Origin: Nitrospirota bacterium
Lineage (GTDB): Bacteria > Nitrospirota > UBA9217
Length of the DNA stretch: 64,000 nt
Direction: 5' to 3'
Assembly (NCBI GenBank): GCA_963754875.1
Contig: CAVWHO010000020.1
Location: forward strand, 175,374 to 239,373
In this document: positions 27,216-58,798 of the stretch, one piece after another
Numbering within the stretch: position 1 is the first letter of the stretch
Layout: each line of letters starts with the position of its first letter
Notes under the pieces: model-generated
Databases searched by the model: none
The model's input: the letters and a program-made list of their open reading frames with translations, nothing else
Told to the model about the DNA's origin: nothing
Translations under genes and position numbers: made by a program

Positions 27216-28316
27216 TTATAGCGGAAGTTTCGTTGTCTCCTCGATTACGGCGTGGGATTCCGTCCCGCTTAAAGACTGCAGCCGGTCCCCGAACTTTTCC
27301 AATCTCTTGTCCGCATCATCGTATTTCGATTTCGTATTTGTCAGATGTTTTCCCACCAGTTCAAAATCCGCCCTGAACTTCTCAAAATCACCGGACAGTC
27401 TCGCCAGGCTTTTCAGGATCTCCTGCGCCTGTTCTTCGACGTGCATTCCTTTAAGACCGAGAAGTATCGTCTGGAGATAAGCATAGAAACTGTTCGGCGA
27501 CACGGGGATAACGCGTTTCGTAAAAGCGTAGTTCAGCAGAGCCTTGTCCGTGTCCACTGCCTCGTCTTTAATGATGAGCTCGTAATAGACATTTTCCGCC
27601 GGGATGTACATAAGTGCGAAGTCAAAGGTCCCTTCGTCGGGCAGGATGTACTTGCCTGCAATGGCATCGATATGTTTTTTCACGTCGCTGATGAACTTCT
27701 TTTTTGCGGCCTTGCGATCCTCTTCCGTGGCCGTCTCCACGACGCGCTTGAAATTCTCCAGAGGAAACTTGGCGTCAATCGGCACAAGGTTGTGGCCGAG
27801 CCTGATGACGGCGTCTACGGCCTCGCCGCTCTTGAACCGGTGTTGAAGCGAGTAGTGGGCCGGCGGAAAGATTTGCGCCAGCAGGTCGCCGAGGAACAAC
27901 TCCCCGAGCCCGCCGCGAAGTTTTGGCGACCGCAGGATCTCCTGCAGGCTTGCGATGTCCTTCCCCACGTCGAACACCTTTTTCGTGGCCTCAGAGAGGC
28001 TGCCCAGTCCCTTGCTTACCTCCTGGACCACGCGCGCCGCGTTATCGAGCCGCGTATTCAGGTCTCCCGTTGATTTCTGGAGTTGCTGCGTCACCTGGCC
28101 GAGCTGCGAGTTGACCTGGAGCGTTATTTGGCCGAGTTGCTGGTTCACGGTCTCCTGGCTTTTGAGCATGGCCTCCGTCAGCTGACCGCGGAGGGATTGC
28201 ACTTCCTGTTGGAGCATCCCGACCGTAGGATCGATGCTCTTCTTCTGCGACTGGAGTACGAGCCAGAGAAGGATGAAGACGACTGCTGCAAGGAGTATGA
28301 GGATGGCGGTAAGCAT
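27216..28316 (-). CDS. rmuC: DNA recombination protein RmuC
   Basis: N-terminal TM, a long coiled-coil, and the C-terminal RmuC nuclease-like region (YILPDEGTFDFALMYIPAENVYYE). Confidence 0.75.
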   Translation of the reverse strand: MLTAILILLAAVVFILLWLVLQSQKKSIDPTVGMLQQEVQSLRGQLTEAMLKSQETVNQQLGQITLQVNSQLGQVTQQLQKSTGDLNTRLDNAARVVQEVSKGLGSLSEATKKVFDVGKDIASLQEILRSPKLRGGLGELFLGDLLAQIFPPAHYSLQHRFKSGEAVDAVIRLGHNLVPIDAKFPLENFKRVVETATEEDRKAAKKKFISDVKKHIDAIAGKYILPDEGTFDFALMYIPAENVYYELIIKDEAVDTDKALLNYAFTKRVIPVSPNSFYAYLQTILLGLKGMHVEEQAQEILKSLARLSGDFEKFRADFELVGKHLTNTKSKYDDADKRLEKFGDRLQSLSGTESHAVIEETTKLPL

Positions 28317-28400: not shown

Positions 28401-29607
28401 GTGTAGTGTCTCACAAACGACTGGTGTTATCAGCCTTTTTCTTGCGAGAGCGAGGTAATGTGCAGCCTGGCTGAATTTTCTCCAATGTTTGTTTGCAGCG
28501 TCCAAGTTTCTTAACGATCGATTCAACGGTTGCGGTCCATACAAACGGTTTTGGGTCTTTGTTCCAAGCAGCCAAATACTCTTCGATAGCGCTCTTGAGC
28601 GCGTCCACGCTGACAAAGACTCCGCGACGTATTCGTTTTCCCGTCAGTTCTCCGAACCAACGCTCAACAAGGTTCAACCAGCTTGAACTGGTCGGGACGA
28701 AGTGGGAAACAAAACGTGGATGCCGTGTTAACCATCTCTGGACTTTGGGGTGCTTATGCGTGCCATAGTTATCCATCACTATGTGCAGCTGCTTTTCGAC
28801 CGGGAATTCAGCATCCAGTTGCTTTAAAAACTTGAGAAATTCCTGATGGCGATGCCGAGCATAACATTGACCGATCACTTTACCTTGCGCCAATTCGAGC
28901 GCAGCAAAAAGGGTTGTCGTGCCGTTACGCTTATAGTCATGAGTCATGGTACCGCAACGCCCTTTTTTTAAAGGAAGTCCCGGTTGTGTACGATCTAACG
29001 CTTGAATCTGGCTTTTCTCATCCACACACAGCACTAATGCTTTTTCTGGAGGATTGAGATAGAGCCCGACGACATCGGTAAGCTTTTCCAAGAACCGTGG
29101 ATCGCGTGACAACTTAAATCCCGTGGTTCTGTGCGGCTGAATATGATGACTTTGCCAGATCCTATTGATCGTTGCTTTGCTCACGCCCTGCTGTTCAGCC
29201 ATCGTTCGGCAACTCCAATGGGTGGCTCCAGCAGGCTTCGTTTGCAGTGTGGCATTAATTATTTTATTAATTTTGGTTGCCGTTAACTCTGGCTTACGTC
29301 CGCGACCTGCCGCAACTTCCCAAAGGCAGTCCGGACCTTCACTACAGAACCGCTGCCTCCATAATGCAGCCGTTTTATAATTGATTTGCATTTGCTTTGC
29401 GATGGCCTTGTCTTGTTGGCCATTCGCAGCGGCTAGAATAATTCGACACCGTTGAGCAACTTGTTGCGGGGTGCGATGAGCCCGCACCCATTGCTCTAGT
29501 TCTTGTCGATCAGACTCAGTAAGGTTTATGGTTAAAGCGTGTCGTGCCATGAACAGCATCCTATCACAAATCATGACATAACACCAGTTAATTGAGAGAC
29601 ACTACAC
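28401..29607 (-). mobile_element. IS630-family insertion sequence, intact copy 2 (1207 bp, TA target duplication)
   Basis: Ends GTGTAGTGTCTC...GAGACACTACAC flanked by TA on both sides. Identical to copy 3. Confidence 0.9.
28411..29574 (-). CDS. IS630-family DDE transposase (387 aa)
   Basis: HTH N-terminus. DDE region VDEKSQ...VMDNYGTHK...[12 protein letters not shown]. Confidence 0.9.
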   Translation of the reverse strand: MICDRMLFMARHALTINLTESDRQELEQWVRAHRTPQQVAQRCRIILAAANGQQDKAIAKQMQINYKTAALWRQRFCSEGPDCLWEVAAGRGRKPELTATKINKIINATLQTKPAGATHWSCRTMAEQQGVSKATINRIWQSHHIQPHRTTGFKLSRDPRFLEKLTDVVGLYLNPPEKALVLCVDEKSQIQALDRTQPGLPLKKGRCGTMTHDYKRNGTTTLFAALELAQGKVIGQCYARHRHQEFLKFLKQLDAEFPVEKQLHIVMDNYGTHKHPKVQRWLTRHPRFVSHFVPTSSSWLNLVERWFGELTGKRIRRGVFVSVDALKSAIEEYLAAWNKDPKPFVWTATVESIVKKLGRCKQTLEKIQPGCTLPRSRKKKADNTSRL

Positions 29608-51889: not shown

Positions 51890-53260
51890 CTGAACCAGCG
51901 TTTTGTTCCATAATTAAGTTGAGTGATCTACCCCACGCCTGAAGGCGGGGGCTTCTCAGGTCAACGAAGGGCTTTAGTACGCCGATTCTCACTGAGCGTT
52001 ACTTTCGGGCGATCCGCCCGTAGTTAAATTTGTCCGAAAAGGAGAATGTTTTGAGCAGCATTGAAATCACGGTCAACGATTTCTCTGCAACCTTGACAAG
52101 TCCACTCTCGATCTTTGAGTGTAAGCCCGTCGTTGATCCAGCCGCACGTTGCATGCCGCTTAGACGATGGGAAAAACCTGTCGATTTGACCGAACATGGT
52201 TCCACTCCATTCGGATTTGTACGCAACCTGACGGATGAATTCAGACCAGCCAGCATCGCAAACGCTTTTTGCAATGCAGTGGTTCGCCGTCATGCCCTTC
52301 ACATTCAAGTCCTCGGCAAAGATAGCTTGGTTCTCGCTTACCAGCCGGGAACTCAATTTGTGAAGGAAATCTTTTCTTTGATTCGCAATTTTTTCATGAA
52401 GCAGCGCGACCTTGTGACGCGCTTTGTTCCGGTTCGCGCTGCCCTTTACCTTGCGGGAAAGACGGCACTGAAAGAACTTCAAGCGATCTTCGGACTTGCG
52501 GAGAAACTTTGGGGACTCAACCCGTTCACCATTGGAGGTTACGAGAAACGATTTGAGCCCCAGGTCGATGCCGATCTGATTACCAGACTTTTTCGGCTTT
52601 ATTTTCTTTTCGACTTCACAAAGAACGGAGGCAAAATACTTTCCGGTCGTTGTCTTCGAGATCGTAATGCTCTTCAATGCGCCTTCAATCTTGCGGTGAA
52701 GAACGGCCTTGATCGGAGCGAACTTCGGAATACTGATAGTCCCAGAGTCAGTATCGACGGAAAAATGTTGAGGCACCAGAAACGATTGTCTGTCATGCTT
52801 GCTCTTGAACTTCGGGAACTCCGATCGCTTGTTAAAAAAGTTGTTGTATGCAACATCAAGACGACGCAGGGACTGTTGAAGCGCCTGAGAATTTACAGCG
52901 TTCAGCCACACAAATTCAGGGCTCTTTTTGAGATCAGTCAGCATCTTCGCCGTGTCATTGTACGTCAATCCCTGTTTCTTCTTGCCCTTATTCGTAGCGT
53001 AGTAATCAATGCGCTCACGCAGAAATCGGTTGTAGACGAAACGGCAGGACCCGAAATGATGAGCGAGAAATTCGGACTGCTTCGCTGTCGGGTTAAGCCG
53101 AAAACTGTAAGCTTTATTGATGAGCATGATTTACAATATATCATGGTTTAATGTAAAAGGCAACTAAATTCTTAGCCCGCTTTGCGGGATGCGGCTTATA
53201 TCCCCATAGCTAAAGCAAGGGGTCTTACGCCGCGAGGTGATAAATAAGTATGAGATAGGC
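51890..53260 (-). mobile_element. IS605-family (IS1341-type, tnpB-only) element; boundaries approximate
   Basis: A TnpB gene with hairpins near both its 3' end (ccccacgcc-tgaa-ggcgggggc, cgggcg-atc-cgcccg) and its 5' flank (cccgc-tttg-cggg). Confidence 0.5.
52024..53127 (-). CDS. tnpB: TnpB (IS605 OrfB, RuvC-like RNA-guided nuclease family)
   Basis: MLINKAYSFRLNPT N-terminus; RuvC motifs IGIDLG, AIFAEDLN, DRDFNAAQNI; zinc finger CGWIND...CQGC. Confidence 0.85.
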   Translation of the reverse strand: MLINKAYSFRLNPTAKQSEFLAHHFGSCRFVYNRFLRERIDYYATNKGKKKQGLTYNDTAKMLTDLKKSPEFVWLNAVNSQALQQSLRRLDVAYNNFFNKRSEFPKFKSKHDRQSFLVPQHFSVDTDSGTISIPKFAPIKAVLHRKIEGALKSITISKTTTGKYFASVLCEVEKKIKPKKSGNQIGIDLGLKSFLVTSNGERVESPKFLRKSEDRLKFFQCRLSRKVKGSANRNKARHKVALLHEKIANQRKDFLHKLSSRLVSENQAIFAEDLNVKGMTANHCIAKSVCDAGWSEFIRQVAYKSEWSGTMFGQIDRFFPSSKRHATCGWINDGLTLKDREWTCQGCREIVDRDFNAAQNILLFGQI

Positions 53261-53846: not shown

Positions 53847-55053
53847 GTGTAGTGTCTCACAAACGACTGGTGTTATCAGCCTTTTTCTTGCGAGAGCGAG
53901 GTAATGTGCAGCCTGGCTGAATTTTCTCCAATGTTTGTTTGCAGCGTCCAAGTTTCTTAACGATCGATTCAACGGTTGCGGTCCATACAAACGGTTTTGG
54001 GTCTTTGTTCCAAGCAGCCAAATACTCTTCGATAGCGCTCTTGAGCGCGTCCACGCTGACAAAGACTCCGCGACGTATTCGTTTTCCCGTCAGTTCTCCG
54101 AACCAACGCTCAACAAGGTTCAACCAGCTTGAACTGGTCGGGACGAAGTGGGAAACAAAACGTGGATGCCGTGTTAACCATCTCTGGACTTTGGGGTGCT
54201 TATGCGTGCCATAGTTATCCATCACTATGTGCAGCTGCTTTTCGACCGGGAATTCAGCATCCAGTTGCTTTAAAAACTTGAGAAATTCCTGATGGCGATG
54301 CCGAGCATAACATTGACCGATCACTTTACCTTGCGCCAATTCGAGCGCAGCAAAAAGGGTTGTCGTGCCGTTACGCTTATAGTCATGAGTCATGGTACCG
54401 CAACGCCCTTTTTTTAAAGGAAGTCCCGGTTGTGTACGATCTAACGCTTGAATCTGGCTTTTCTCATCCACACACAGCACTAATGCTTTTTCTGGAGGAT
54501 TGAGATAGAGCCCGACGACATCGGTAAGCTTTTCCAAGAACCGTGGATCGCGTGACAACTTAAATCCCGTGGTTCTGTGCGGCTGAATATGATGACTTTG
54601 CCAGATCCTATTGATCGTTGCTTTGCTCACGCCCTGCTGTTCAGCCATCGTTCGGCAACTCCAATGGGTGGCTCCAGCAGGCTTCGTTTGCAGTGTGGCA
54701 TTAATTATTTTATTAATTTTGGTTGCCGTTAACTCTGGTTTACGTCCGCGACCTGCCGCAACTTCCCAAAGGCAGTCCGGACCTTCACTACAGAACCGCT
54801 GCCTCCATAATGCAGCCGTTTTATAATTGATTTGCATTTGCTTTGCGATGGCCTTGTCTTGTTGGCCATTCGCAGCGGCTAGAATAATTCGACACCGTTG
54901 AGCAACTTGTTGCGGGGTGCGATGAGCCCGCACCCATTGCTCTAGTTCTTGTCGATCAGACTCAGTAAGGTTTATGGTTAAAGCGTGTCGTGCCATGAAC
55001 AGCATCCTATCACAAATCATGACATAACACCAGTTAATTGAGAGACACTACAC
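53847..55053 (-). mobile_element. IS630-family insertion sequence, intact copy 3 (identical to copy 2, TA-flanked)
   Basis: Same ends and TA duplication. The encoded 387-aa protein is identical to copy 2. Confidence 0.9.
53857..55020 (-). CDS. IS630-family DDE transposase (387 aa)
   Basis: Identical translation to the ORF at 28411..29574. Confidence 0.9.
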   Translation of the reverse strand: MICDRMLFMARHALTINLTESDRQELEQWVRAHRTPQQVAQRCRIILAAANGQQDKAIAKQMQINYKTAALWRQRFCSEGPDCLWEVAAGRGRKPELTATKINKIINATLQTKPAGATHWSCRTMAEQQGVSKATINRIWQSHHIQPHRTTGFKLSRDPRFLEKLTDVVGLYLNPPEKALVLCVDEKSQIQALDRTQPGLPLKKGRCGTMTHDYKRNGTTTLFAALELAQGKVIGQCYARHRHQEFLKFLKQLDAEFPVEKQLHIVMDNYGTHKHPKVQRWLTRHPRFVSHFVPTSSSWLNLVERWFGELTGKRIRRGVFVSVDALKSAIEEYLAAWNKDPKPFVWTATVESIVKKLGRCKQTLEKIQPGCTLPRSRKKKADNTSRL

Positions 55054-55090: not shown

Positions 55091-55137
55091 TTGACATTTA
55101 TGTAAAAGTATAATAATATTTGCATACTTTTATGTAA
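55091..55137 (+). promoter_or_regulatory. promoter (-35 TTGACA at 55091) overlapping a 14-bp-arm imperfect inverted repeat (ttatgtaaaagtat-N12-atacttttatgtaa); candidate ArsR-family operator
   Basis: Hexamer and inverted repeat read 40-80 nt upstream of the arsR ATG. Confidence 0.45.
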
Positions 55138-55172
55138 ATTGTTTTTCGTTTCGATATAAGGAGAAAAACAAA

Positions 55173-55514
55173 ATGCTCCCCATGGACAAGAGAATCGATC
55201 TCCTCAAAGTCATCGCCCACCCCATGCGCATCAAGATTCTCGAAGAGCTTACTCAAGGTGTGAAATGCGTAAGCGATTTCGAAGACTCCCTCGACATCAG
55301 CCAGCCGAATGTGTCACAGCACTTGACCCTCCTCCGAACGAACGGAATCATCGATTTCTTCGTTGACGGAAGGCTCAAGTGCTATTTCCTCAAAGAACCT
55401 CTCATCCCTGATCTCCTGGGACTTCTCAAAAAAAAGTATAAAGAAGACATACCCGCACCGGCCTGTTGTCCGGTGACGAAAAAAGGAACTTACCCTGGCG
55501 AAAGGAGAAGATAA
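55173..55514 (+). CDS. ArsR/SmtB-family transcriptional regulator with a C-terminal Cys pair
   Basis: HTH region CVSDFEDSLDISQPNVSQHLTLL. C-terminal PAPACCP. AAGGAGAAAAA RBS. Confidence 0.8.
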   Translation: MLPMDKRIDLLKVIAHPMRIKILEELTQGVKCVSDFEDSLDISQPNVSQHLTLLRTNGIIDFFVDGRLKCYFLKEPLIPDLLGLLKKKYKEDIPAPACCPVTKKGTYPGERRR

Positions 55515-55520
55515 GTCTGC

Positions 55521-55790
55521 ATGAAAAAGCACACAATTACTCTCTACGTGAACGACCCCATGGGCAAGCGCTGATTGTCCAATATGGATGCCGCTCGTGT
55601 GGCGGAGAAAGAGTTCGGCGCAGAAGTCGTCGTAATCAAGAAGACCTCGAAGGAGTATCAGGGGCAGCGAGACCCGCTTCCCTGTCCTTCCGTTGTCTTG
55701 AACGGGCGGCTCATCGCAAAGAAAGATACCATTACGTACCAAAGCTTGAAGACATCGATCATGTGCGACTGTGAAATAACACTCGTATAA
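55521..55790 (+). CDS. candidate thioredoxin-fold (redox-active-disulfide-protein-2-like) selenoprotein with an in-frame TGA at 55572..55574
   Basis: The ATG at 55521 has AAAGGAGAAG 9 nt upstream. Its 17 codons run in frame into the ORF 55575..55790, which has no RBS of its own. The translation MKKHTITLYVNDPMGKR-U-LSNMDAA...PCPSVVLNGRLIAKKD aligns with small Trx-like proteins, with U at the second position of the CxxC motif. Confidence 0.45.
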
Positions 55791-55801
55791 AGGAGGGTGC
55801 C

Positions 55802-56158
55802 ATGCCAAAAACCGTAACTCTATATTTATCAACATCGCCGTATTCCTACGAGAACACGCTGACGAGCGCCCGCATTGCCGAATCCGCTTTGAACAAGGGC
55901 CATACCGTCAACCTCATCGCATCGGCTGACGGCATCTACTGCTTTCTGACAAAGCAGAAGGCGAAAGGGATCCTGAATGCCGAAGAGGAATTCACCAGGC
56001 TCATACAAAAAGGCTTGAAGGTGTATCTCTGAGGCGGGTGCCTCAACTTTCGCCGTGCGGCGAAAGACGACTATCTTGCAGGTACAGAAGTAGGCTCGCT
56101 TAAAGGCCTGTTTGCAACCATGGGCGAGACGGACGTGTGGATTAATCTAGGTGCATAG
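55802..56158 (+). CDS. dsrE: DsrE/TusD-like sulfurtransferase with an in-frame TGA (probable selenocysteine) at 56030..56032
   Basis: AAGGAGGG RBS. The ORF through TGA and 42 further in-frame codons gives ...KVYL-U-GGCLNFRRAAKDDYL...GETDVWINLGA, which aligns with TusD ...NICVAAALRRGV...LTCDRVVQF with U at the active-site Cys78 position. A hairpin cuuucgcc-GUGC-ggcgaaag begins 14 nt after the UGA. The next gene starts 10 nt after the extended stop and has its own RBS. Confidence 0.7.
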
Positions 56159-56167
56159 GAGGAGCAT

Positions 56168-56521
56168 ATGTCAAATGTTGCGATGATCTTAAAGAGATCT
56201 CCCTACGGCGATATCAACGCGGCCGAGGCTGTACGCCATGCCCTTGGCGCTGTGTCCGGTGAACTTAGCGTTGATCTCATCCTGATCGACGGCGGGGTGC
56301 TGCTTGCAAAGAAGGGGCAGGACGACAAGGGTACGGGTTTCACAAATCTCGAAGGCACTCTCAAGGACTGCGTCGAAATGGGAGTCGCCGTCTATGCCGA
56401 CACTGCTTCGCTCAAAACGCAGGGTGTCCCGTCAAACGAGGTCGTCGAAAACGTCAAACTGGTCGGTGCCAAAGAGATCGCGGGACTGTTGAAGGAAGCA
56501 AAATCGACCATGATATTCTAG
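56168..56521 (+). CDS. dsrF: DsrF/TusC-like protein
   Basis: The DsrE/DsrF-family fold pattern (MILKRSPYGD...LILIDGGVLLAKKGQ). AGGAGG RBS. Confidence 0.7.
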   Translation: MSNVAMILKRSPYGDINAAEAVRHALGAVSGELSVDLILIDGGVLLAKKGQDDKGTGFTNLEGTLKDCVEMGVAVYADTASLKTQGVPSNEVVENVKLVGAKEIAGLLKEAKSTMIF

Positions 56522-56532
56522 AGGAGGCTGCT

Positions 56533-56814
56533 ATGTTCGTGATGATAAAGAGCGCGCCGGATACGACTGATGGAGCACTCGGATTGACCCTTGCGAAAGA
56601 AAGCGGGGCCGATCTTATCCTGCTGCAGAACGGCGTGTATTTTGCGAAAAAAGAACGGCTCGGCGATTTTGCCAGGACAGTGTATGTCCTGGATGACGAC
56701 AAGAGGCTCCGGGGTCTCAAGGATTCCGAAATGGATGGGCGTGCAAAAAACATCGACTACGACAAGCTGACCGACATCATTACGGGCGGCGACAAGGTGG
56801 TCGGGATGTTTTAA
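56533..56814 (+). CDS. dsrH: DsrH/TusB-like protein
   Basis: MFVMIKSAPD...LILLQNGVY pattern of TusB/DsrH. GAGGAGG RBS. Confidence 0.65.
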   Translation: MFVMIKSAPDTTDGALGLTLAKESGADLILLQNGVYFAKKERLGDFARTVYVLDDDKRLRGLKDSEMDGRAKNIDYDKLTDIITGGDKVVGMF

Positions 56815-56839: not shown

Positions 56840-58030
56840 ATGTCAAGGATCGTTGTGGTAGGGGGATCGTTCGGGGGATTGACAGCGGCCTTCGAGCTTA
56901 AACGACTGCTTGGGAAGAAAGCCGACGTGACCGTGGTGAGCGACGATGACCGGTTTGTGTTCCTGCCGTCGCTGCCGTGGCTCATCATGGGGTGGAGAAA
57001 GCCGGAAGATATTACCCTTAAGGTGAGCGAGATCCTGAAGCCCAAGGGGATCGAGTTCGTTCATGACGCGGCAAAGCAGATCGACGCCGATTCATCGAAG
57101 GTAACAACCTCAAAAGGAAAAGAGCTGCCCTATGACTTTCTCGTAATATCTACGGGACCGTATCTTTCCTTTGATGAGATTCCCGGGCTGGGACCTGATA
57201 AGGGCCATACCGACTGTACGTTTACACTTGATCATGCATTAAGAGCCAGAGAATCGTGGAAAAAGATCCTGGAGAACCCCGGTCCGATAGTCGTCGGTTC
57301 GTCGCAGATGGTGAGCTGTTTCGGCCCGTCCTACGAGCTGGCGTTTGAGATGGACACCGAGCTTCGCCGTCGAAAAATGCGCCACAAAGTACCCATCCTC
57401 TATCTCACGTCTGAACCCTATCTCGGCCACATGGGGGTCGGTGGTCTCGGCAAATCAAAGCGCTTCATGGAAGACGAATTTGCCGAGCGGGACATCAAAC
57501 CCGTCATCAGCCAAGCCATTGAAGAGGTAACGCCCGGAGAAATCAAACTCAAGGACGGCACAAAGCTACCCTTCAAACTTGCCATGATCGCGCCGCCGTT
57601 CAAAGGCGTGCCTGCCGTCATGCCGTTGGGAAATCCCCGCGGGTTCATCCCGGTTGACAAGAACTATCGTCATACGAAATTTAAAAATATTTTTGCCATC
57701 GGTGTTACCATGGCCATCGCACCGCCGGAGGCGACGCCGGTGCCGACGGGCGTTCCCAAGACCGGATTTATGACGGTGAAGATGGCGAAGATTGCCGCGG
57801 CAACTATCGCTGCCGGCATCACCGGGAAGACCCCGCCTCCTCCGTCGGAAATCGGCGTGGTTTGTCTCATGGACATGGGAAACACAGCCGCATACATGAA
57901 GGCCTATCCCGTGCTTCCGCCGCGCCAGAGTTCCTATACGAGGAAGACCATCTGGGCGAAGTGGATGAAGGTCCGGTTCGAGAAATACTTCCTCTGGAAG
58001 ATGAAGAGGGGGCTCAGCAATCTGCCATGA
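56840..58030 (+). CDS. sqr: sulfide:quinone oxidoreductase-like FAD-dependent pyridine nucleotide-disulfide oxidoreductase
   Basis: VVVGGSFGGLTAA Rossmann motif. The length and the Cys positions (VSCFGP, VVCLMDMG) fit SQR/FCSD-type flavoproteins. GGGGAGG RBS. Confidence 0.65.
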   Translation: MSRIVVVGGSFGGLTAAFELKRLLGKKADVTVVSDDDRFVFLPSLPWLIMGWRKPEDITLKVSEILKPKGIEFVHDAAKQIDADSSKVTTSKGKELPYDFLVISTGPYLSFDEIPGLGPDKGHTDCTFTLDHALRARESWKKILENPGPIVVGSSQMVSCFGPSYELAFEMDTELRRRKMRHKVPILYLTSEPYLGHMGVGGLGKSKRFMEDEFAERDIKPVISQAIEEVTPGEIKLKDGTKLPFKLAMIAPPFKGVPAVMPLGNPRGFIPVDKNYRHTKFKNIFAIGVTMAIAPPEATPVPTGVPKTGFMTVKMAKIAAATIAAGITGKTPPPPSEIGVVCLMDMGNTAAYMKAYPVLPPRQSSYTRKTIWAKWMKVRFEKYFLWKMKRGLSNLP

Positions 58031-58173
58031 AGAAAGAGATATTGAAGCTGCACGCTGATTTTTGCAAGATATTTTCCAATCCCACGAGGCTTGAGATACT
58101 CTGCCTGCTTAGAGAAGGCGAACTGACTGCCGGCGAGATCACTGAGAAGCTCGGCGTGTCACATGGCTATTAA
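58027..58173 (+). pseudogene. second arsR-family gene truncated after the first HTH helix by inserted DNA
   Basis: MKKEILKLHADFCKIFSNPTRLEILCLLREGELTAGEITEKLGVS then HGY-stop. Homologous to the 55173 protein up to the recognition helix. Confidence 0.6.
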
Positions 58174-58180
58174 ACTTACA

Positions 58181-58798
58181 TCATAGGTGCAGGGCCAGGC
58201 GGTTATGTCGCCGCGATACGTGCAGCGCAGGCTCTTTCGTTCTTTGAGCTTCGGTGTAGATTTCATGGCTGAAAAGGTCAATGACATGCAGCGCATAGAA
58301 CCTACGGTCATCTTTGATGTAGCGCGGCCCCACCAAGCCCATCTGGTGGATATTGTTGCACCCCAAGGCCTCGGTGAAGTAAGGGTATTCGACTCCTTTG
58401 GACGCATAGGCTGTTTTTTTAACGAGCCCTTTGCGTTTCAGCACTCGGTTTATCGTGCTGTCCGAAGGAAATGGTAGCCCCTGCTTCTTGAGCTCCCATT
58501 TGATGGCGGAAACGCCGATCTGGGCATAAGGCGCATCCACCAGTTGCTGCCTGGTCAAAAGGATGCGCTTTTTCGCTCCCTCGTCGATCTCCGAGGGCCT
58601 TGTTTTGGGAGCCCGAGATTGTTCTTTGAACCAGCCTGCTGCTCCGGTTCGATATCGTATCAGCCATTTGAAGAACCACTTCTTGGATCGGTTCAGGCTG
58701 GTATAAACATCTTTGGGTGATTCGCCTCTTTGGATGTGTCGTTTGATAGGGGTCTGTCTGAGTGCGCTCTCCTTTAGTAATCTGAATAAGGAGAGCAT
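58181..58798 (-). pseudogene. IS481-like transposase N-terminal fragment (HTH plus the start of an rve integrase core)
   Basis: Transposase-type HTH. GPRYIKDDRRFYALHVIDLFSHEIY begins the DDE core, but the ORF ends after 205 aa. Confidence 0.55.

What the first reader, a model, noticed from the sequence alone, without database searches (positions are those of the whole stretch)
55521..55790. Possible second selenoprotein: a thioredoxin-fold ORF only explained by UGA readthrough
The only RBS (AAAGGAGAAG) serves the ATG at 55521. Seventeen codons later a TGA is followed in frame by a 71-codon ORF that has no start signal of its own. The joined product resembles small CxxC redox-active-disulfide proteins (an N-terminal beta strand ...ITLYVNDP, then the active site, then a PCPS cis-Pro loop and VVLNGRLIA). 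The U falls at the second Cys of the CxxC, while the first Cys position is Gly. Only a weak hairpin (ccgc-ucgugug-gcgg) follows the UGA, so this is less secure than the dsrE case.
Basis: inference. Interest (0 to 1): 0.55.

Follow-up and report, generated by a model that had tools for sequence, protein, structure and literature searches.

The report
TsoC-like thioredoxin-fold selenoprotein gene
The in-frame TGA is very probably a selenocysteine codon in one 89-codon gene for a small thioredoxin-fold protein, a mis-annotated relative of the recently predicted selenoprotein TsoC that sits in a sulfur-trafficking operon.

Summary
An AGGAG ribosome-binding site and ATG at 55521 are followed by 17 codons, TGA (55572-55574), 71 more in-frame codons and TAA (55788-55790).

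Comparative evidence shows this is a single selenoprotein gene:
- 38 of 41 related loci keep TGA at the same codon, and the other 3 have TGC (Cys).
- A 98%-identical strain (L045) has TGC there and encodes an uninterrupted 89-aa protein.
- The 17-codon leader is under strong purifying selection as protein.
- No start codon or RBS is conserved downstream of the TGA.
- A G+C-rich hairpin with compensatory changes lies 16 nt after the UGA, and 26 of 33 distinct relatives meet all four published bacterial SECIS rules. The window's own copy is weak (-5.5 kcal/mol).

This is a new member of a known kind, and the function is inferred only.

The parts
55091..55139 (+). Putative sigma-70-type promoter (TTGACA-17-TAATAT, 55091-55119) overlapped by an imperfect palindrome (55096-55111 / 55124-55139). 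It is a candidate operator for the ArsR-type repressor of the operon.
   Evidence: Consensus scan and inverted-repeat search. These are pattern matches only, and function is not shown.
55173..55514 (+). ArsR/SmtB-family regulator (113 aa) immediately upstream. It has Cys32 and a C-terminal vicinal Cys-Cys (PAPACCPV).
   Evidence: Pfam HTH_5 at 4.6e-11. NCBIfam HTH_metalloreg at 68 bits (passes), with BigR at 50 bits and TsoR at 31 bits, both below cutoff. It lies directly upstream of the homolog in about 35 related loci.
55503..55507 (+). Shine-Dalgarno sequence AGGAG serving the ATG at 55521 (13-nt spacing; the ArsR stop TAA is at 55512-55514).
   Evidence: Sequence. An AGGAG/GGAGG-type site precedes the leader ATG in nearly all relatives.
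55521..55790 (+). Complete selenoprotein gene: 89 codons including Sec18, plus a TAA stop. The product is MKKHTITLYVNDPMGKR-U-LSNMDAARVAEKEFGAEVVVIKKTSKEYQGQRDPLPCPSVVLNGRLIAKKDTITYQSLKTSIMCDCEITLV.
   Evidence: Public gene calls keep only the last 68 residues (P0001).
55572..55574 (+). In-frame TGA, inferred to be the selenocysteine codon (residue 18, the U of the G-K-R-U motif).
   Evidence: TGA at the aligned codon in 38 of 41 related loci and TGC in 3. Further Cys forms are P0059, P0073, P0075, P0083 and P0084.
55591..55605 (+). Candidate bacterial SECIS hairpin: stem CCGCU/GGCGG with loop CGUGU. The stem starts 16 nt after the UGA and the apical loop starts 21 nt after it.
   Evidence: In-register hairpin across 33 distinct sequences: 86.9% of cells paired, against 29-53% when the partner is slid, and 0 of 500 shuffles reach the observed pairing or covariation. 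Pair 33-45 occurs as CG, UG, UA and AU. Synonymous-recoding control gives mean z = -1.8. 26 of 33 relatives pass all four bSECIS rules, but the window's copy fails the energy rule at -5.5 kcal/mol.
55683..55685 (+). TGT codon for Cys55 in the P-L-P-C-P-S motif. It is invariant in this clade and sits just before the presumed cis-proline of the thioredoxin fold. It is the candidate partner of Sec18.
   Evidence: Invariant column C55 and nearly invariant P56 in alignments A1 and A3. Strand 3 begins at residue 58 in the model. The pairing with Sec18 is inferred, not measured.
55802..56158 (+). Adjacent DsrE-like selenoprotein gene. It has an in-frame TGA at 56030-56032 (motif U-G-G-C) and a strong SECIS hairpin at 56047-56066. 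It shows that the same mRNA carries a second Sec codon.
   Evidence: Translation. Fold of -21.9 kcal/mol, z = -3.1, with an 8-bp stem and the GUGC loop starting 22 nt after the UGA. The review lists DsrE-like UxxC as a known selenoprotein family.
56168..56814 (+). DsrF/TusC-like gene (56168-56521) and DsrH/TusB-like gene (56533-56814).
   Evidence: Pfam DsrE at 1.6e-16 and DsrH at 3.6e-08. NCBIfam TusC and TusB hits are below cutoff. Both are conserved downstream in at least 20 loci.
56840..58030 (+). SQR-like FAD-dependent pyridine nucleotide-disulfide oxidoreductase (396 aa), the last conserved gene of the operon.
   Evidence: Pfam Pyr_redox_2 at 1.1e-19. The best NCBIfam hit is the type III SQR selenoprotein subtype at 108 bits against a 525-bit cutoff, so it is a distant relative only. 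Conserved in related loci.

Best explanation
Window 55521-55790 is one gene for an 89-residue thioredoxin-fold selenoprotein.

How it is made. Translation starts at the ATG at 55521. The UGA at 55572 is decoded as selenocysteine by SelB and Sec-tRNA(Sec), with help from a small G+C-rich hairpin (55591-55605) whose apical loop begins 21 nt after the UGA. Translation then continues to the TAA at 55788.

What it is. The protein belongs to a small clade with the motif N-D-P-M-G-K-R-U. This clade is a paralogous sister of the predicted selenoprotein family TsoC (NCBIfam NF045708, NEPxGxxU). Sec18 occupies the second position of what is CxxC in thioredoxins, and the first position is Gly. An invariant Cys55 sits immediately before the presumed cis-proline.

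Inferred mechanism. Sec18 is the nucleophile. It forms a selenenylsulfide or Se-S(n) adduct that Cys55 or a partner protein resolves. The protein would work as a redox or sulfane-sulfur carrier alongside its co-transcribed partners: the Sec-containing DsrE-DsrF-DsrH-like sulfur-relay complex and an SQR-like flavoprotein. An ArsR-type repressor controls the operon.

Shown versus inferred. Gene structure, conservation of UGA, Cys counterparts, hairpin conservation, fold and operon conservation are shown here. Actual selenium insertion, the Sec18-Cys55 couple and the substrate are inferred.
For: Sec/Cys pairing. 38 of 41 related loci have TGA and 3 have TGC at the aligned codon. Additional full-length Cys forms are P0015, P0044, P0059, P0073, P0075 and P0083. 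P0084 (locus L045) is 98% identical in DNA, differs at this codon only by TGA to TGC, and gives an intact 89-aa ORF.

Leader is coding. Entropy by codon position is 0.46/0.34/1.23, and synonymous codon differences outnumber nonsynonymous ones (3367 vs 2275). An ATG with AGGAG is present in nearly all relatives.

No alternative start. 5 of 34 relatives have no ATG, GTG or TTG within 24 codons after the TGA, others have the first one only at +12 to +18, and there is no Shine-Dalgarno sequence.

Hairpin. It is conserved in register with compensatory changes. It is more stable than synonymous recodings of the same peptide (mean z = -1.8 over 32 sequences). 26 of 33 relatives meet all four published bSECIS constraints, and the Cys forms do not (constraints from PMC13188914). 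L040-L042 keep a hairpin through a different stem shifted by 3 nt.

Family. NF045708 TsoC matches at E = 2.5e-8.

Sec decoding in the same transcript. The neighbouring dsrE-like gene has a conserved TGA and a strong SECIS, with its loop 22 nt after the UGA.

Operon. It is conserved in at least 20 loci.
Against: The window's own hairpin is marginal. It is -5.5 kcal/mol in the family register, which is weaker than the -7.5 kcal/mol limit of the consensus model. It is no more stable than dinucleotide shuffles, and 11% of synonymous recodings fold as well.

The closest relative has already switched to Cys while keeping the identical hairpin, so Sec insertion in this lineage may be inefficient.

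The stem lies in conserved coding sequence (A-A-R-x-A-E), which limits the independent weight of its conservation.

No tRNA-Sec was found in the 64-kb window, and no Sec machinery was found among the ten large ORFs sampled.

Pfam thioredoxin models do not match. The fold rests on a model of a 56%-identical Cys ortholog, not of the window protein itself.

The function is inferred from neighbours only. Some relatives sit in other contexts (SelD-like, TauE, DedA/VTT, the tsoABC operon), which would fit selenium or metalloid handling equally well.
Confidence: 0.82

Rival explanations
1. This is the reading of the public annotation. The TGA terminates translation, and the real gene is the 68-71-residue ORF that starts at TTG 55575 or ATG 55584. 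The upstream 17 codons are a leader peptide or non-coding.
For: Automatic gene callers report this. P0001 (68 aa) and most of the 52 database homologs are 64-72 aa. TTG or ATG follows the TGA directly in many relatives.
Against: There is no Shine-Dalgarno sequence before any downstream start. The downstream start is not conserved: it is absent within 24 codons in 5 of 34 relatives, and at +12 to +18 in others. The leader is more conserved as protein than the downstream part. Cys forms fuse both parts into one ORF. The truncated product would lack strand 1 and the active-site turn of the thioredoxin fold.
Confidence: 0.05
2. In this genome the TGA is a recent nonsense mutation, or a sequencing error, of a Cys codon. 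The gene would then be a fresh pseudogene and not a selenoprotein gene.
For: The nearest relative, L045, differs by a single base (TGC vs TGA) and shares the identical, rather weak hairpin.
Against: TGA is the majority state across 38 of 41 loci from distinct lineages, so TGA is ancestral and TGC is derived. The ORF downstream of the TGA is intact, and the differences from L045 are mostly synonymous or conservative. The neighbouring gene also uses Sec-UGA.
Confidence: 0.04
3. The UGA is recoded, but not as selenocysteine. It would be read through by a near-cognate tRNA (Trp or Cys) or under an alternative genetic code.
For: The window's SECIS-like hairpin is weak. Selenium insertion has not been shown.
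Against: TGA is used as an ordinary stop elsewhere in the same operon, for example at the end of the SQR-like gene at 58028-58030. The UGA aligns specifically with Cys in homologs. A SECIS-type hairpin at the canonical distance is conserved. The profile match is to a curated selenoprotein family.
Confidence: 0.03
4. This rival accepts the same gene structure but proposes a different role. The protein would handle selenium or a metalloid (a selenide, selenite or arsenite carrier or chaperone) and would not be part of a sulfane-sulfur relay.
For: In L012 the homolog lies next to a SelD-like gene (AIRS and AIRS_C domains) and a TauE gene. In L010 it follows tsoABC and precedes a DedA/VTT-family membrane protein. 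The regulator is an ArsR-type metalloregulator with a C-terminal vicinal Cys pair. ArsD, a thioredoxin-fold arsenic chaperone, is among the structural matches.
Against: The dominant and most conserved context is DsrE-DsrF-DsrH plus an SQR-like flavoprotein, in at least 20 loci. That context, together with TauE and a multihaem cytochrome in some loci, points to sulfur chemistry. The two roles are not mutually exclusive.
Confidence: 0.25

Closest known systems
TsoC, 'NEPxGxxU motif selenoprotein' (NCBIfam NF045708; Haft & Tolstoy 2025, mSystems 10:e0141724, cited through review PMC13188914)
   Same: It is the only profile that matches (E = 2.5e-8, profile positions 2-82 of 87). The size is the same (about 85-105 aa). 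The motif N-[ED]-P-x-G-x-x-U has Sec at the same place. Both have a short SECIS hairpin about 16-20 nt after the UGA. Both are computational predictions with no known function.
   Different: The score is 33.8 bits against a 45-bit cutoff, and clade members score 25-45 bits. Identity to a bona fide TsoC is only 25%. In L010 both genes occur side by side, so they are paralogs. The window clade has an invariant Cys (P-C-P-S) where the one true TsoC I examined has V-A-P-A. The window has no TsoA or TsoB, and the gene's partners are DsrE(U)FH and an SQR-like enzyme.
Minimal thioredoxins and 'redox-active disulfide protein' types (for example MtH895, PDB 1ilo; Pfam Thioredoxin_3)
   Same: The four-strand, three-helix thioredoxin fold of about 80 residues is the same. 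The reactive residue sits in the first turn of helix 1, and a proline-containing loop precedes strand 3.
   Different: There is no CxxC. The first Cys is Gly and the second is Sec. There is no Pfam or PDB match at sequence level. The loop between strand 1 and helix 1 is longer, by my reading of the sequence.
Rdx-family selenoproteins (SelW-like, CxxU) and other thioredoxin-fold prokaryotic selenoproteins listed in PMC13188914
   Same: They have a thioredoxin-like fold with Sec at the C-terminal position of the CxxC-equivalent motif. Cys-containing homologs exist.
   Different: Those families keep the first Cys (CxxU), whereas this one has Gly. No sequence similarity was detected (at E <= 10 returned only TsoC).
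DsrE-like selenoprotein (UxxC, PF02635), the neighbouring gene
   Same: It is co-transcribed, uses Sec, and has a SECIS loop at nearly the same distance from the UGA (22 vs 21 nt).
   Different: The fold and family are unrelated. It is a partner of this protein, not a homolog.

Membership tests
Bacterial selenoprotein gene | In-frame UGA conserved at the same codon in orthologs | tested here: met
   38 of 41 related loci have TGA at the aligned codon.
Bacterial selenoprotein gene | Cys-containing homologs in which Cys aligns with the UGA | tested here: met
   P0015, P0044, P0059, P0073, P0075, P0083, P0084 and L036. L045 is 98% identical in DNA and has TGC.
Bacterial selenoprotein gene | bSECIS matching the consensus model: 3-9 nt loop, 4-16 bp stem, G in the first two loop positions, 16-37 nt from the UGA, MFE <= -7.5 kcal/mol (PMC13188914, Fig. 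2) | tested here: inconclusive
   The window hairpin has a 5-nt loop CGUGU (G at position 2), a 5-bp stem and 21-nt spacing, so three rules are met. The simple hairpin is only -5.5 kcal/mol, although the 33-51-nt region folds at -8.6 to -12.2 kcal/mol. 26 of 33 distinct relatives pass all four rules.
Bacterial selenoprotein gene | Sec machinery (selA, selB, selC, selD) in the same genome | not testable with these tools
   Only 64 kb is available. It contains no tRNA, and no Sec gene was found among the ten large ORFs sampled. Indirect support comes from the adjacent dsrE-like gene, which has a conserved Sec-UGA and a strong SECIS, and from relative L012, which has a SelD-like gene nearby.
Bacterial selenoprotein gene | Selenium shown in the protein | not testable with these tools
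   This needs 75Se labelling or mass spectrometry.
TsoC (NCBIfam NF045708, equivalog) | Whole-protein score at or above the curated cutoff of 45 bits | tested here: not met
   The window protein scores 33.8 bits. Clade members score 25-45.0 bits, and only L001 reaches the cutoff. The true TsoC fragment in L010 scores 97.5 bits.
TsoC (NCBIfam NF045708, equivalog) | NEPxGxxU motif | tested here: inconclusive
   The window has N-D-P-M-G-K-R-U. The spacing and the G and U positions match, but D replaces E. L006, L030 and L034 have NEP.
TsoC (NCBIfam NF045708, equivalog) | Neighbourhood with TsoA (LULAxC) and TsoB (rhodanese/DsbD fusion, UxxxxU) | tested here: not met
   There is no TsoA, TsoB or TsoX motif in a coding context anywhere in the window. 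Only L010 has tsoA-tsoB-tsoC, and there the window-type gene is a fourth, separate gene.
Thioredoxin fold | b-a-b-a-b-b-a topology superimposable on thioredoxins | tested here: met
Thioredoxin fold | CxxC dithiol active site | tested here: not met
   The motif is G-K-R-U. Gly15 is invariant at the first position.
Thioredoxin fold | cis-Proline loop facing the active site | not tested
   Pro56 is at least 90% conserved and lies two residues before strand 3.
Thioredoxin fold | Match to Pfam thioredoxin-family profiles | tested here: not met
   There is no Pfam hit at E <= 1 and no PDB sequence hit at E <= 10.

The most novel reading that the evidence does not exclude
The NDPMGKR-U clade is a distinct selenoprotein family and not merely TsoC. 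It would be defined by a Sec18/Cys55 selenenylsulfide couple across the thioredoxin active-site cleft and by its obligate ArsR-controlled operon with a second selenoprotein, DsrE(Sec)-DsrF-DsrH, and an SQR-like flavoprotein. Together these would form a selenium-dependent sulfane-sulfur relay in anaerobic Nitrospirota (Thermodesulfovibrionia), in which sulfur is passed between two selenols. That would be the first sulfur-trafficking pathway built around two cooperating selenoproteins.
Probability: 0.25. Interest if true: 0.65.

Novelty: new member of a known kind. Interest (0 to 1): 0.45.

Why it matters
Public annotation truncates this gene to a 68-residue hypothetical protein, and most of its database homologs are truncated in the same way (64-72 aa). 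The true product and its active site are therefore invisible to anyone mining these genomes.

Recognising it adds a second selenoprotein to an operon that already encodes a Sec-containing DsrE. The operon is widespread in subsurface and sediment Nitrospirota. The result is a concrete, testable candidate for selenium-dependent sulfur (or selenium) trafficking.

It also shows that the curated TsoC model misses a sister clade sitting just under its cutoff. A dedicated model would correct the annotation of dozens of genomes.

It does not change what is known about Sec decoding, and the biochemical role is still unknown.

Tried and rejected
- **Pfam:** a scan of the U-to-C joined product and of the truncated ORF gave no hit at E <= 1.
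- **PDB sequence searches:** the family profile and P0015 gave nothing relevant.
- **Rfam:** a scan of 55400-56300 at E <= 10 gave only two chance-level hits and no SECIS family.
- **Source paper:** Haft & Tolstoy 2025, the paper that described TsoC, is not in the held library. I could not check whether the authors already noted this sister clade.
- **Structure of the window protein:** The natural Cys ortholog P0015 was used instead.
- **Source contig:** look-up through P0001 found nothing, so the source organism is inferred only from its nearest relatives (Nitrospirota metagenome-assembled genomes).
- **5' mini-hairpin:** a second small hairpin directly after the UGA (UCCAAUAUGGA) was rejected as part of the element because it is not conserved across relatives. 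The long-range pairing of the UGA region with columns 56-61 proposed by RNAalifold shows no compensatory change.
- **MccSep link:** I considered whether the pentahaem cytochrome next to some homologs is MccSep (PMC13510729). The only PDB match was cytochrome c552, 5ze8, so the link is untested.
- **Model coordinates:** they could not be read, so the Sec18-Cys55 distance was not measured.

Full report
**1. The observation**

- The ArsR-type gene ends at TAA 55512-55514, and an AGGAG (55503-55507) lies inside its last codons.
- An ATG follows at 55521, then 17 sense codons (MKKHTITLYVNDPMGKR), TGA at 55572-55574, 71 further in-frame sense codons, and TAA at 55788-55790.
- Taken alone it is weak. 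The 51 nt after the UGA fold no better than dinucleotide shuffles (z = +0.32), and the family-register hairpin is only -5.5 kcal/mol.

**2. Family assignment**

Pfam finds nothing for the joined product, even at E <= 1. NCBIfam gives one hit: NF045708, "NEPxGxxU motif selenoprotein TsoC", at E = 2.5e-8 and 33.8 bits. That is below the curated 45-bit cutoff, and the match covers profile positions 2-82 of 87.

The window motif is N-D-P-M-G-K-R-U. A 2026 review lists TsoC (GxxU, one Sec) among selenoproteins predicted computationally by Haft & Tolstoy 2025 (PMC13188914). The original paper is not held.

**3. Sec/Cys pairs and conservation of the UGA**

A search of 5.8 billion proteins found 52 homologs. 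Nearly all are 64-72 aa and begin right after the position of the UGA, which is the signature of truncated gene calls. Two full-length proteins have ITLYVNDPMGRRC, with Cys at the UGA position.

Scans of genome and metagenome contigs gave 42 loci, mostly Nitrospirota/Thermodesulfovibrionales metagenome-assembled genomes plus one Desulfobacterales. Of the 41 loci where the motif could be located, 38 have TGA and 3 have TGC at the aligned codon.

An exhaustive profile search of 1.84 billion representatives found only 32 clusters. Again these are mostly truncated, with further Cys forms P0059, P0073, P0075 and P0083, the last being a fusion protein.

The window's own 90% cluster contains P0084, an 89-aa protein with Cys at residue 18. 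Its locus, L045, is 98% identical to the window in DNA and differs at that codon only by TGA to TGC. Its dsrE-like neighbour still carries TGA.

**4. One gene, not two**

Across 34 distinct sequences, the 17 leader codons vary mainly at third positions (entropy 0.46/0.34/1.23). Synonymous codon differences outnumber nonsynonymous ones (3367 vs 2275). That is tighter protein-level constraint than in the 20 codons after the TGA.

An AGGAG-type site precedes the leader ATG almost everywhere. The first possible start after the TGA is not conserved: it is absent within 24 codons in 5 of 34 sequences and lies at +12 to +18 in others. It also lacks a Shine-Dalgarno sequence.

**5. The SECIS candidate**

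All relatives have a G+C-rich hairpin in the same register, starting 16 nt after the UGA, with the apical loop 21-22 nt after it.

| Test | Result |
|---|---|
| Cells forming a standard pair, 33 distinct sequences | 86.9% |
| Same, with the 3' partner slid by 1-3 columns | 29-53% |
| Shuffles reaching the observed pairing or covariation | 0 of 500 |
| Pair types at columns 33-45 (third positions of two Ala codons) | CG, UG, UA, AU |
| Synonymous recoding of the same peptides, 32 sequences | mean z = -1.8, median -2.0 |
| Cys forms under the same control | z = +0.7, -0.5, -1.4 |
| Distinct TGA sequences passing all four published bSECIS rules | 26 of 33 |
| Cys forms passing all four rules | none |

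The stem is coding, so I recoded each sequence synonymously using the family's own codon usage; that is the control in the table. L040-L042 keep a hairpin through a different stem shifted by 3 nt.

The four bSECIS rules come from PMC13188914. The window meets the loop-size, G-position and spacing rules but not the energy rule, because a closing U·G pair weakens the stem. Its near-identical relative L045 has already become Cys.

The dsrE-like gene 230 nt downstream has a much stronger SECIS (-21.9 kcal/mol, z = -3.1) with its loop 22 nt after its UGA. One SelB could therefore serve both sites.

**6. Fold**

- The model has pLDDT 88.6 and pTM 0.79. Its elements are b1 5-10, a1 16-32, b2 35-40, a short helix 44-47, b3 58-60, b4 63-66 and a3 73-83.
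- Foldseek against the PDB returns thioredoxins, including MtH895 and ArsD, at probability about 1.0 and TM 0.55-0.70.

Residue 18 lies in the first turn of helix 1, and Gly15 lies at its N-terminus. From general knowledge of the fold, that corresponds to the second and first Cys of CxxC. Cys55 is invariant in this clade, and Pro56 is at least 90% conserved two residues before strand 3. That is where the cis-proline sits in thioredoxins. A Sec18-Cys55 selenenylsulfide is therefore plausible, but it is inferred, since I could not read the model coordinates.

**7. Relationship to TsoC**

L010 (Desulfobacterales) carries a complete tso operon:
- a TsoA motif, LULAEC;
- TsoB, with ALVFY-U-AGLT-U at the rhodanese/DsbD junction; the DsbD part alone scores 795 bits against NF045694;
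- a bona fide TsoC, MLKVRFFLNEPNGKP-U..., whose truncated part scores 97.5 bits;
- directly after that, the window-type gene, at 39 bits.

The two types are thus paralogs. They are only 25% identical, and the true TsoC has V-A-P-A where the window clade has P-C-P-S. Members of the window clade score 25-45 bits, and one (L001) sits exactly at the cutoff. The window has no TsoA, TsoB or TsoX motif. I therefore file the protein as TsoC-like, not as TsoC.

**8. Context and likely role**

The order ArsR, this gene, DsrE(Sec), DsrF, DsrH, SQR-like flavoprotein is conserved in at least 20 loci. There are no convincing internal terminators. A promoter-like site overlapped by a palindrome lies upstream of ArsR.

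Other contexts occur in some relatives:
- In several loci, a TauE-family membrane protein and a five-CxxCH cytochrome are inserted between this gene and dsrE.
- The Cys form in L036 keeps ArsR, TauE and two DsrE-family genes.
- In L012 the gene lies near a methyltransferase, a SelD-like gene and a TauE gene.

The dominant association points to sulfane-sulfur or persulfide handling, with Sec18 as the nucleophile. A selenium or metalloid role is a live alternative. Both are inference from neighbours.

**9. Verdict**

The gene is a genuine, mis-annotated selenoprotein gene, with about 0.8-0.9 confidence in the gene structure. It belongs to a small thioredoxin-fold clade that is sister to the recently predicted TsoC family.

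It is a new member of a known kind. It is useful for annotation, and it is a lead into Sec-based sulfur trafficking, but it is not a surprise for specialists.

The main weaknesses are the marginal hairpin in this particular copy, the lack of genome-wide evidence for Sec machinery, and the absence of any experimental data on the family.

Noticed in passing
window 55802-56158: The next gene is a DsrE-like selenoprotein with an in-frame TGA at 56030-56032 (motif U-G-G-C). It has a strong 8-bp SECIS hairpin at 56047-56066 (-21.9 kcal/mol, z = -3.1). The operon therefore encodes two selenoproteins.
   Followed up: partly
window 53857-55020, 28411-29574 and near 1108 (opposite strand); also 52024-53127 and 27216-28316: There are repeated mobile-element ORFs. 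Two 387-aa transposase-like ORFs share the same peptide, with a third related copy near 1.1 kb. There are also two TnpB-like ORFs of 366-367 aa. One IS copy ends only about 150 nt upstream of the ArsR gene of this operon.
   Followed up: no
window 58027-58173 and 58181-58798: A second ArsR-like ORF starts at 58027, with an ATGA overlap on the stop of the SQR-like gene. It ends prematurely at 58173, next to a transposase-like ORF on the minus strand, so an IS insertion may have disrupted it.
   Followed up: no
L010 3400-6240: A Desulfobacterales metagenome-assembled genome carries four consecutive Sec-containing genes: TsoA (LULAEC), TsoB (ALVFY-U-AGLT-U), a true TsoC (NEPNGKP-U) and the window-type paralog (NDPMGKR-U). 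A DedA/VTT-family membrane protein and a fatty-acid-hydroxylase-family protein follow.
   Followed up: partly
L001 6273-8272; L024 1972-4856: In several Nitrospirota loci, a TauE/SafE-family membrane protein and a cytochrome with five CxxCH motifs sit between the homolog and dsrE(Sec). The best PDB match is cytochrome c552, 5ze8. A relationship to the pentahaem selenoenzyme MccSep for sulfur respiration (PMC13510729) was not tested.
   Followed up: partly
L012 7480-8353: A SelD-like gene (AIRS and AIRS_C domains) lies two genes downstream of the homolog. It is split into two overlapping ORFs, which suggests a frameshift or an assembly error.
   Followed up: no
L045 1180-1449 (Logan SRR24975956): A strain 98% identical to the window has TGC (Cys) in place of TGA in this gene, while its dsrE-like neighbour keeps TGA. 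This looks like a very recent Sec-to-Cys replacement, with the hairpin still intact.
   Followed up: yes
L009 6001-6254; proteins P0049, P0050, P0074: Some homologs have frameshifted or chimeric C-termini (for example L009 ends ...VVVNGRLSQGTTRLHSGRSRQRS). These are probably assembly errors or decaying copies.
   Followed up: no
protein P0083 (334 aa): A Cys-form copy of this domain (NNPMGVRC, lacking Cys55) is fused to a Cys-rich C-terminal region of about 250 residues and unknown function.
   Followed up: no
window 55096-55139: An imperfect palindrome (ATTTATGTAAAAGTAT / ATACTTTTATGTAAAT) overlaps a promoter-like site (TTGACA-17-TAATAT) upstream of the ArsR gene. It is a candidate operator.
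   Followed up: no
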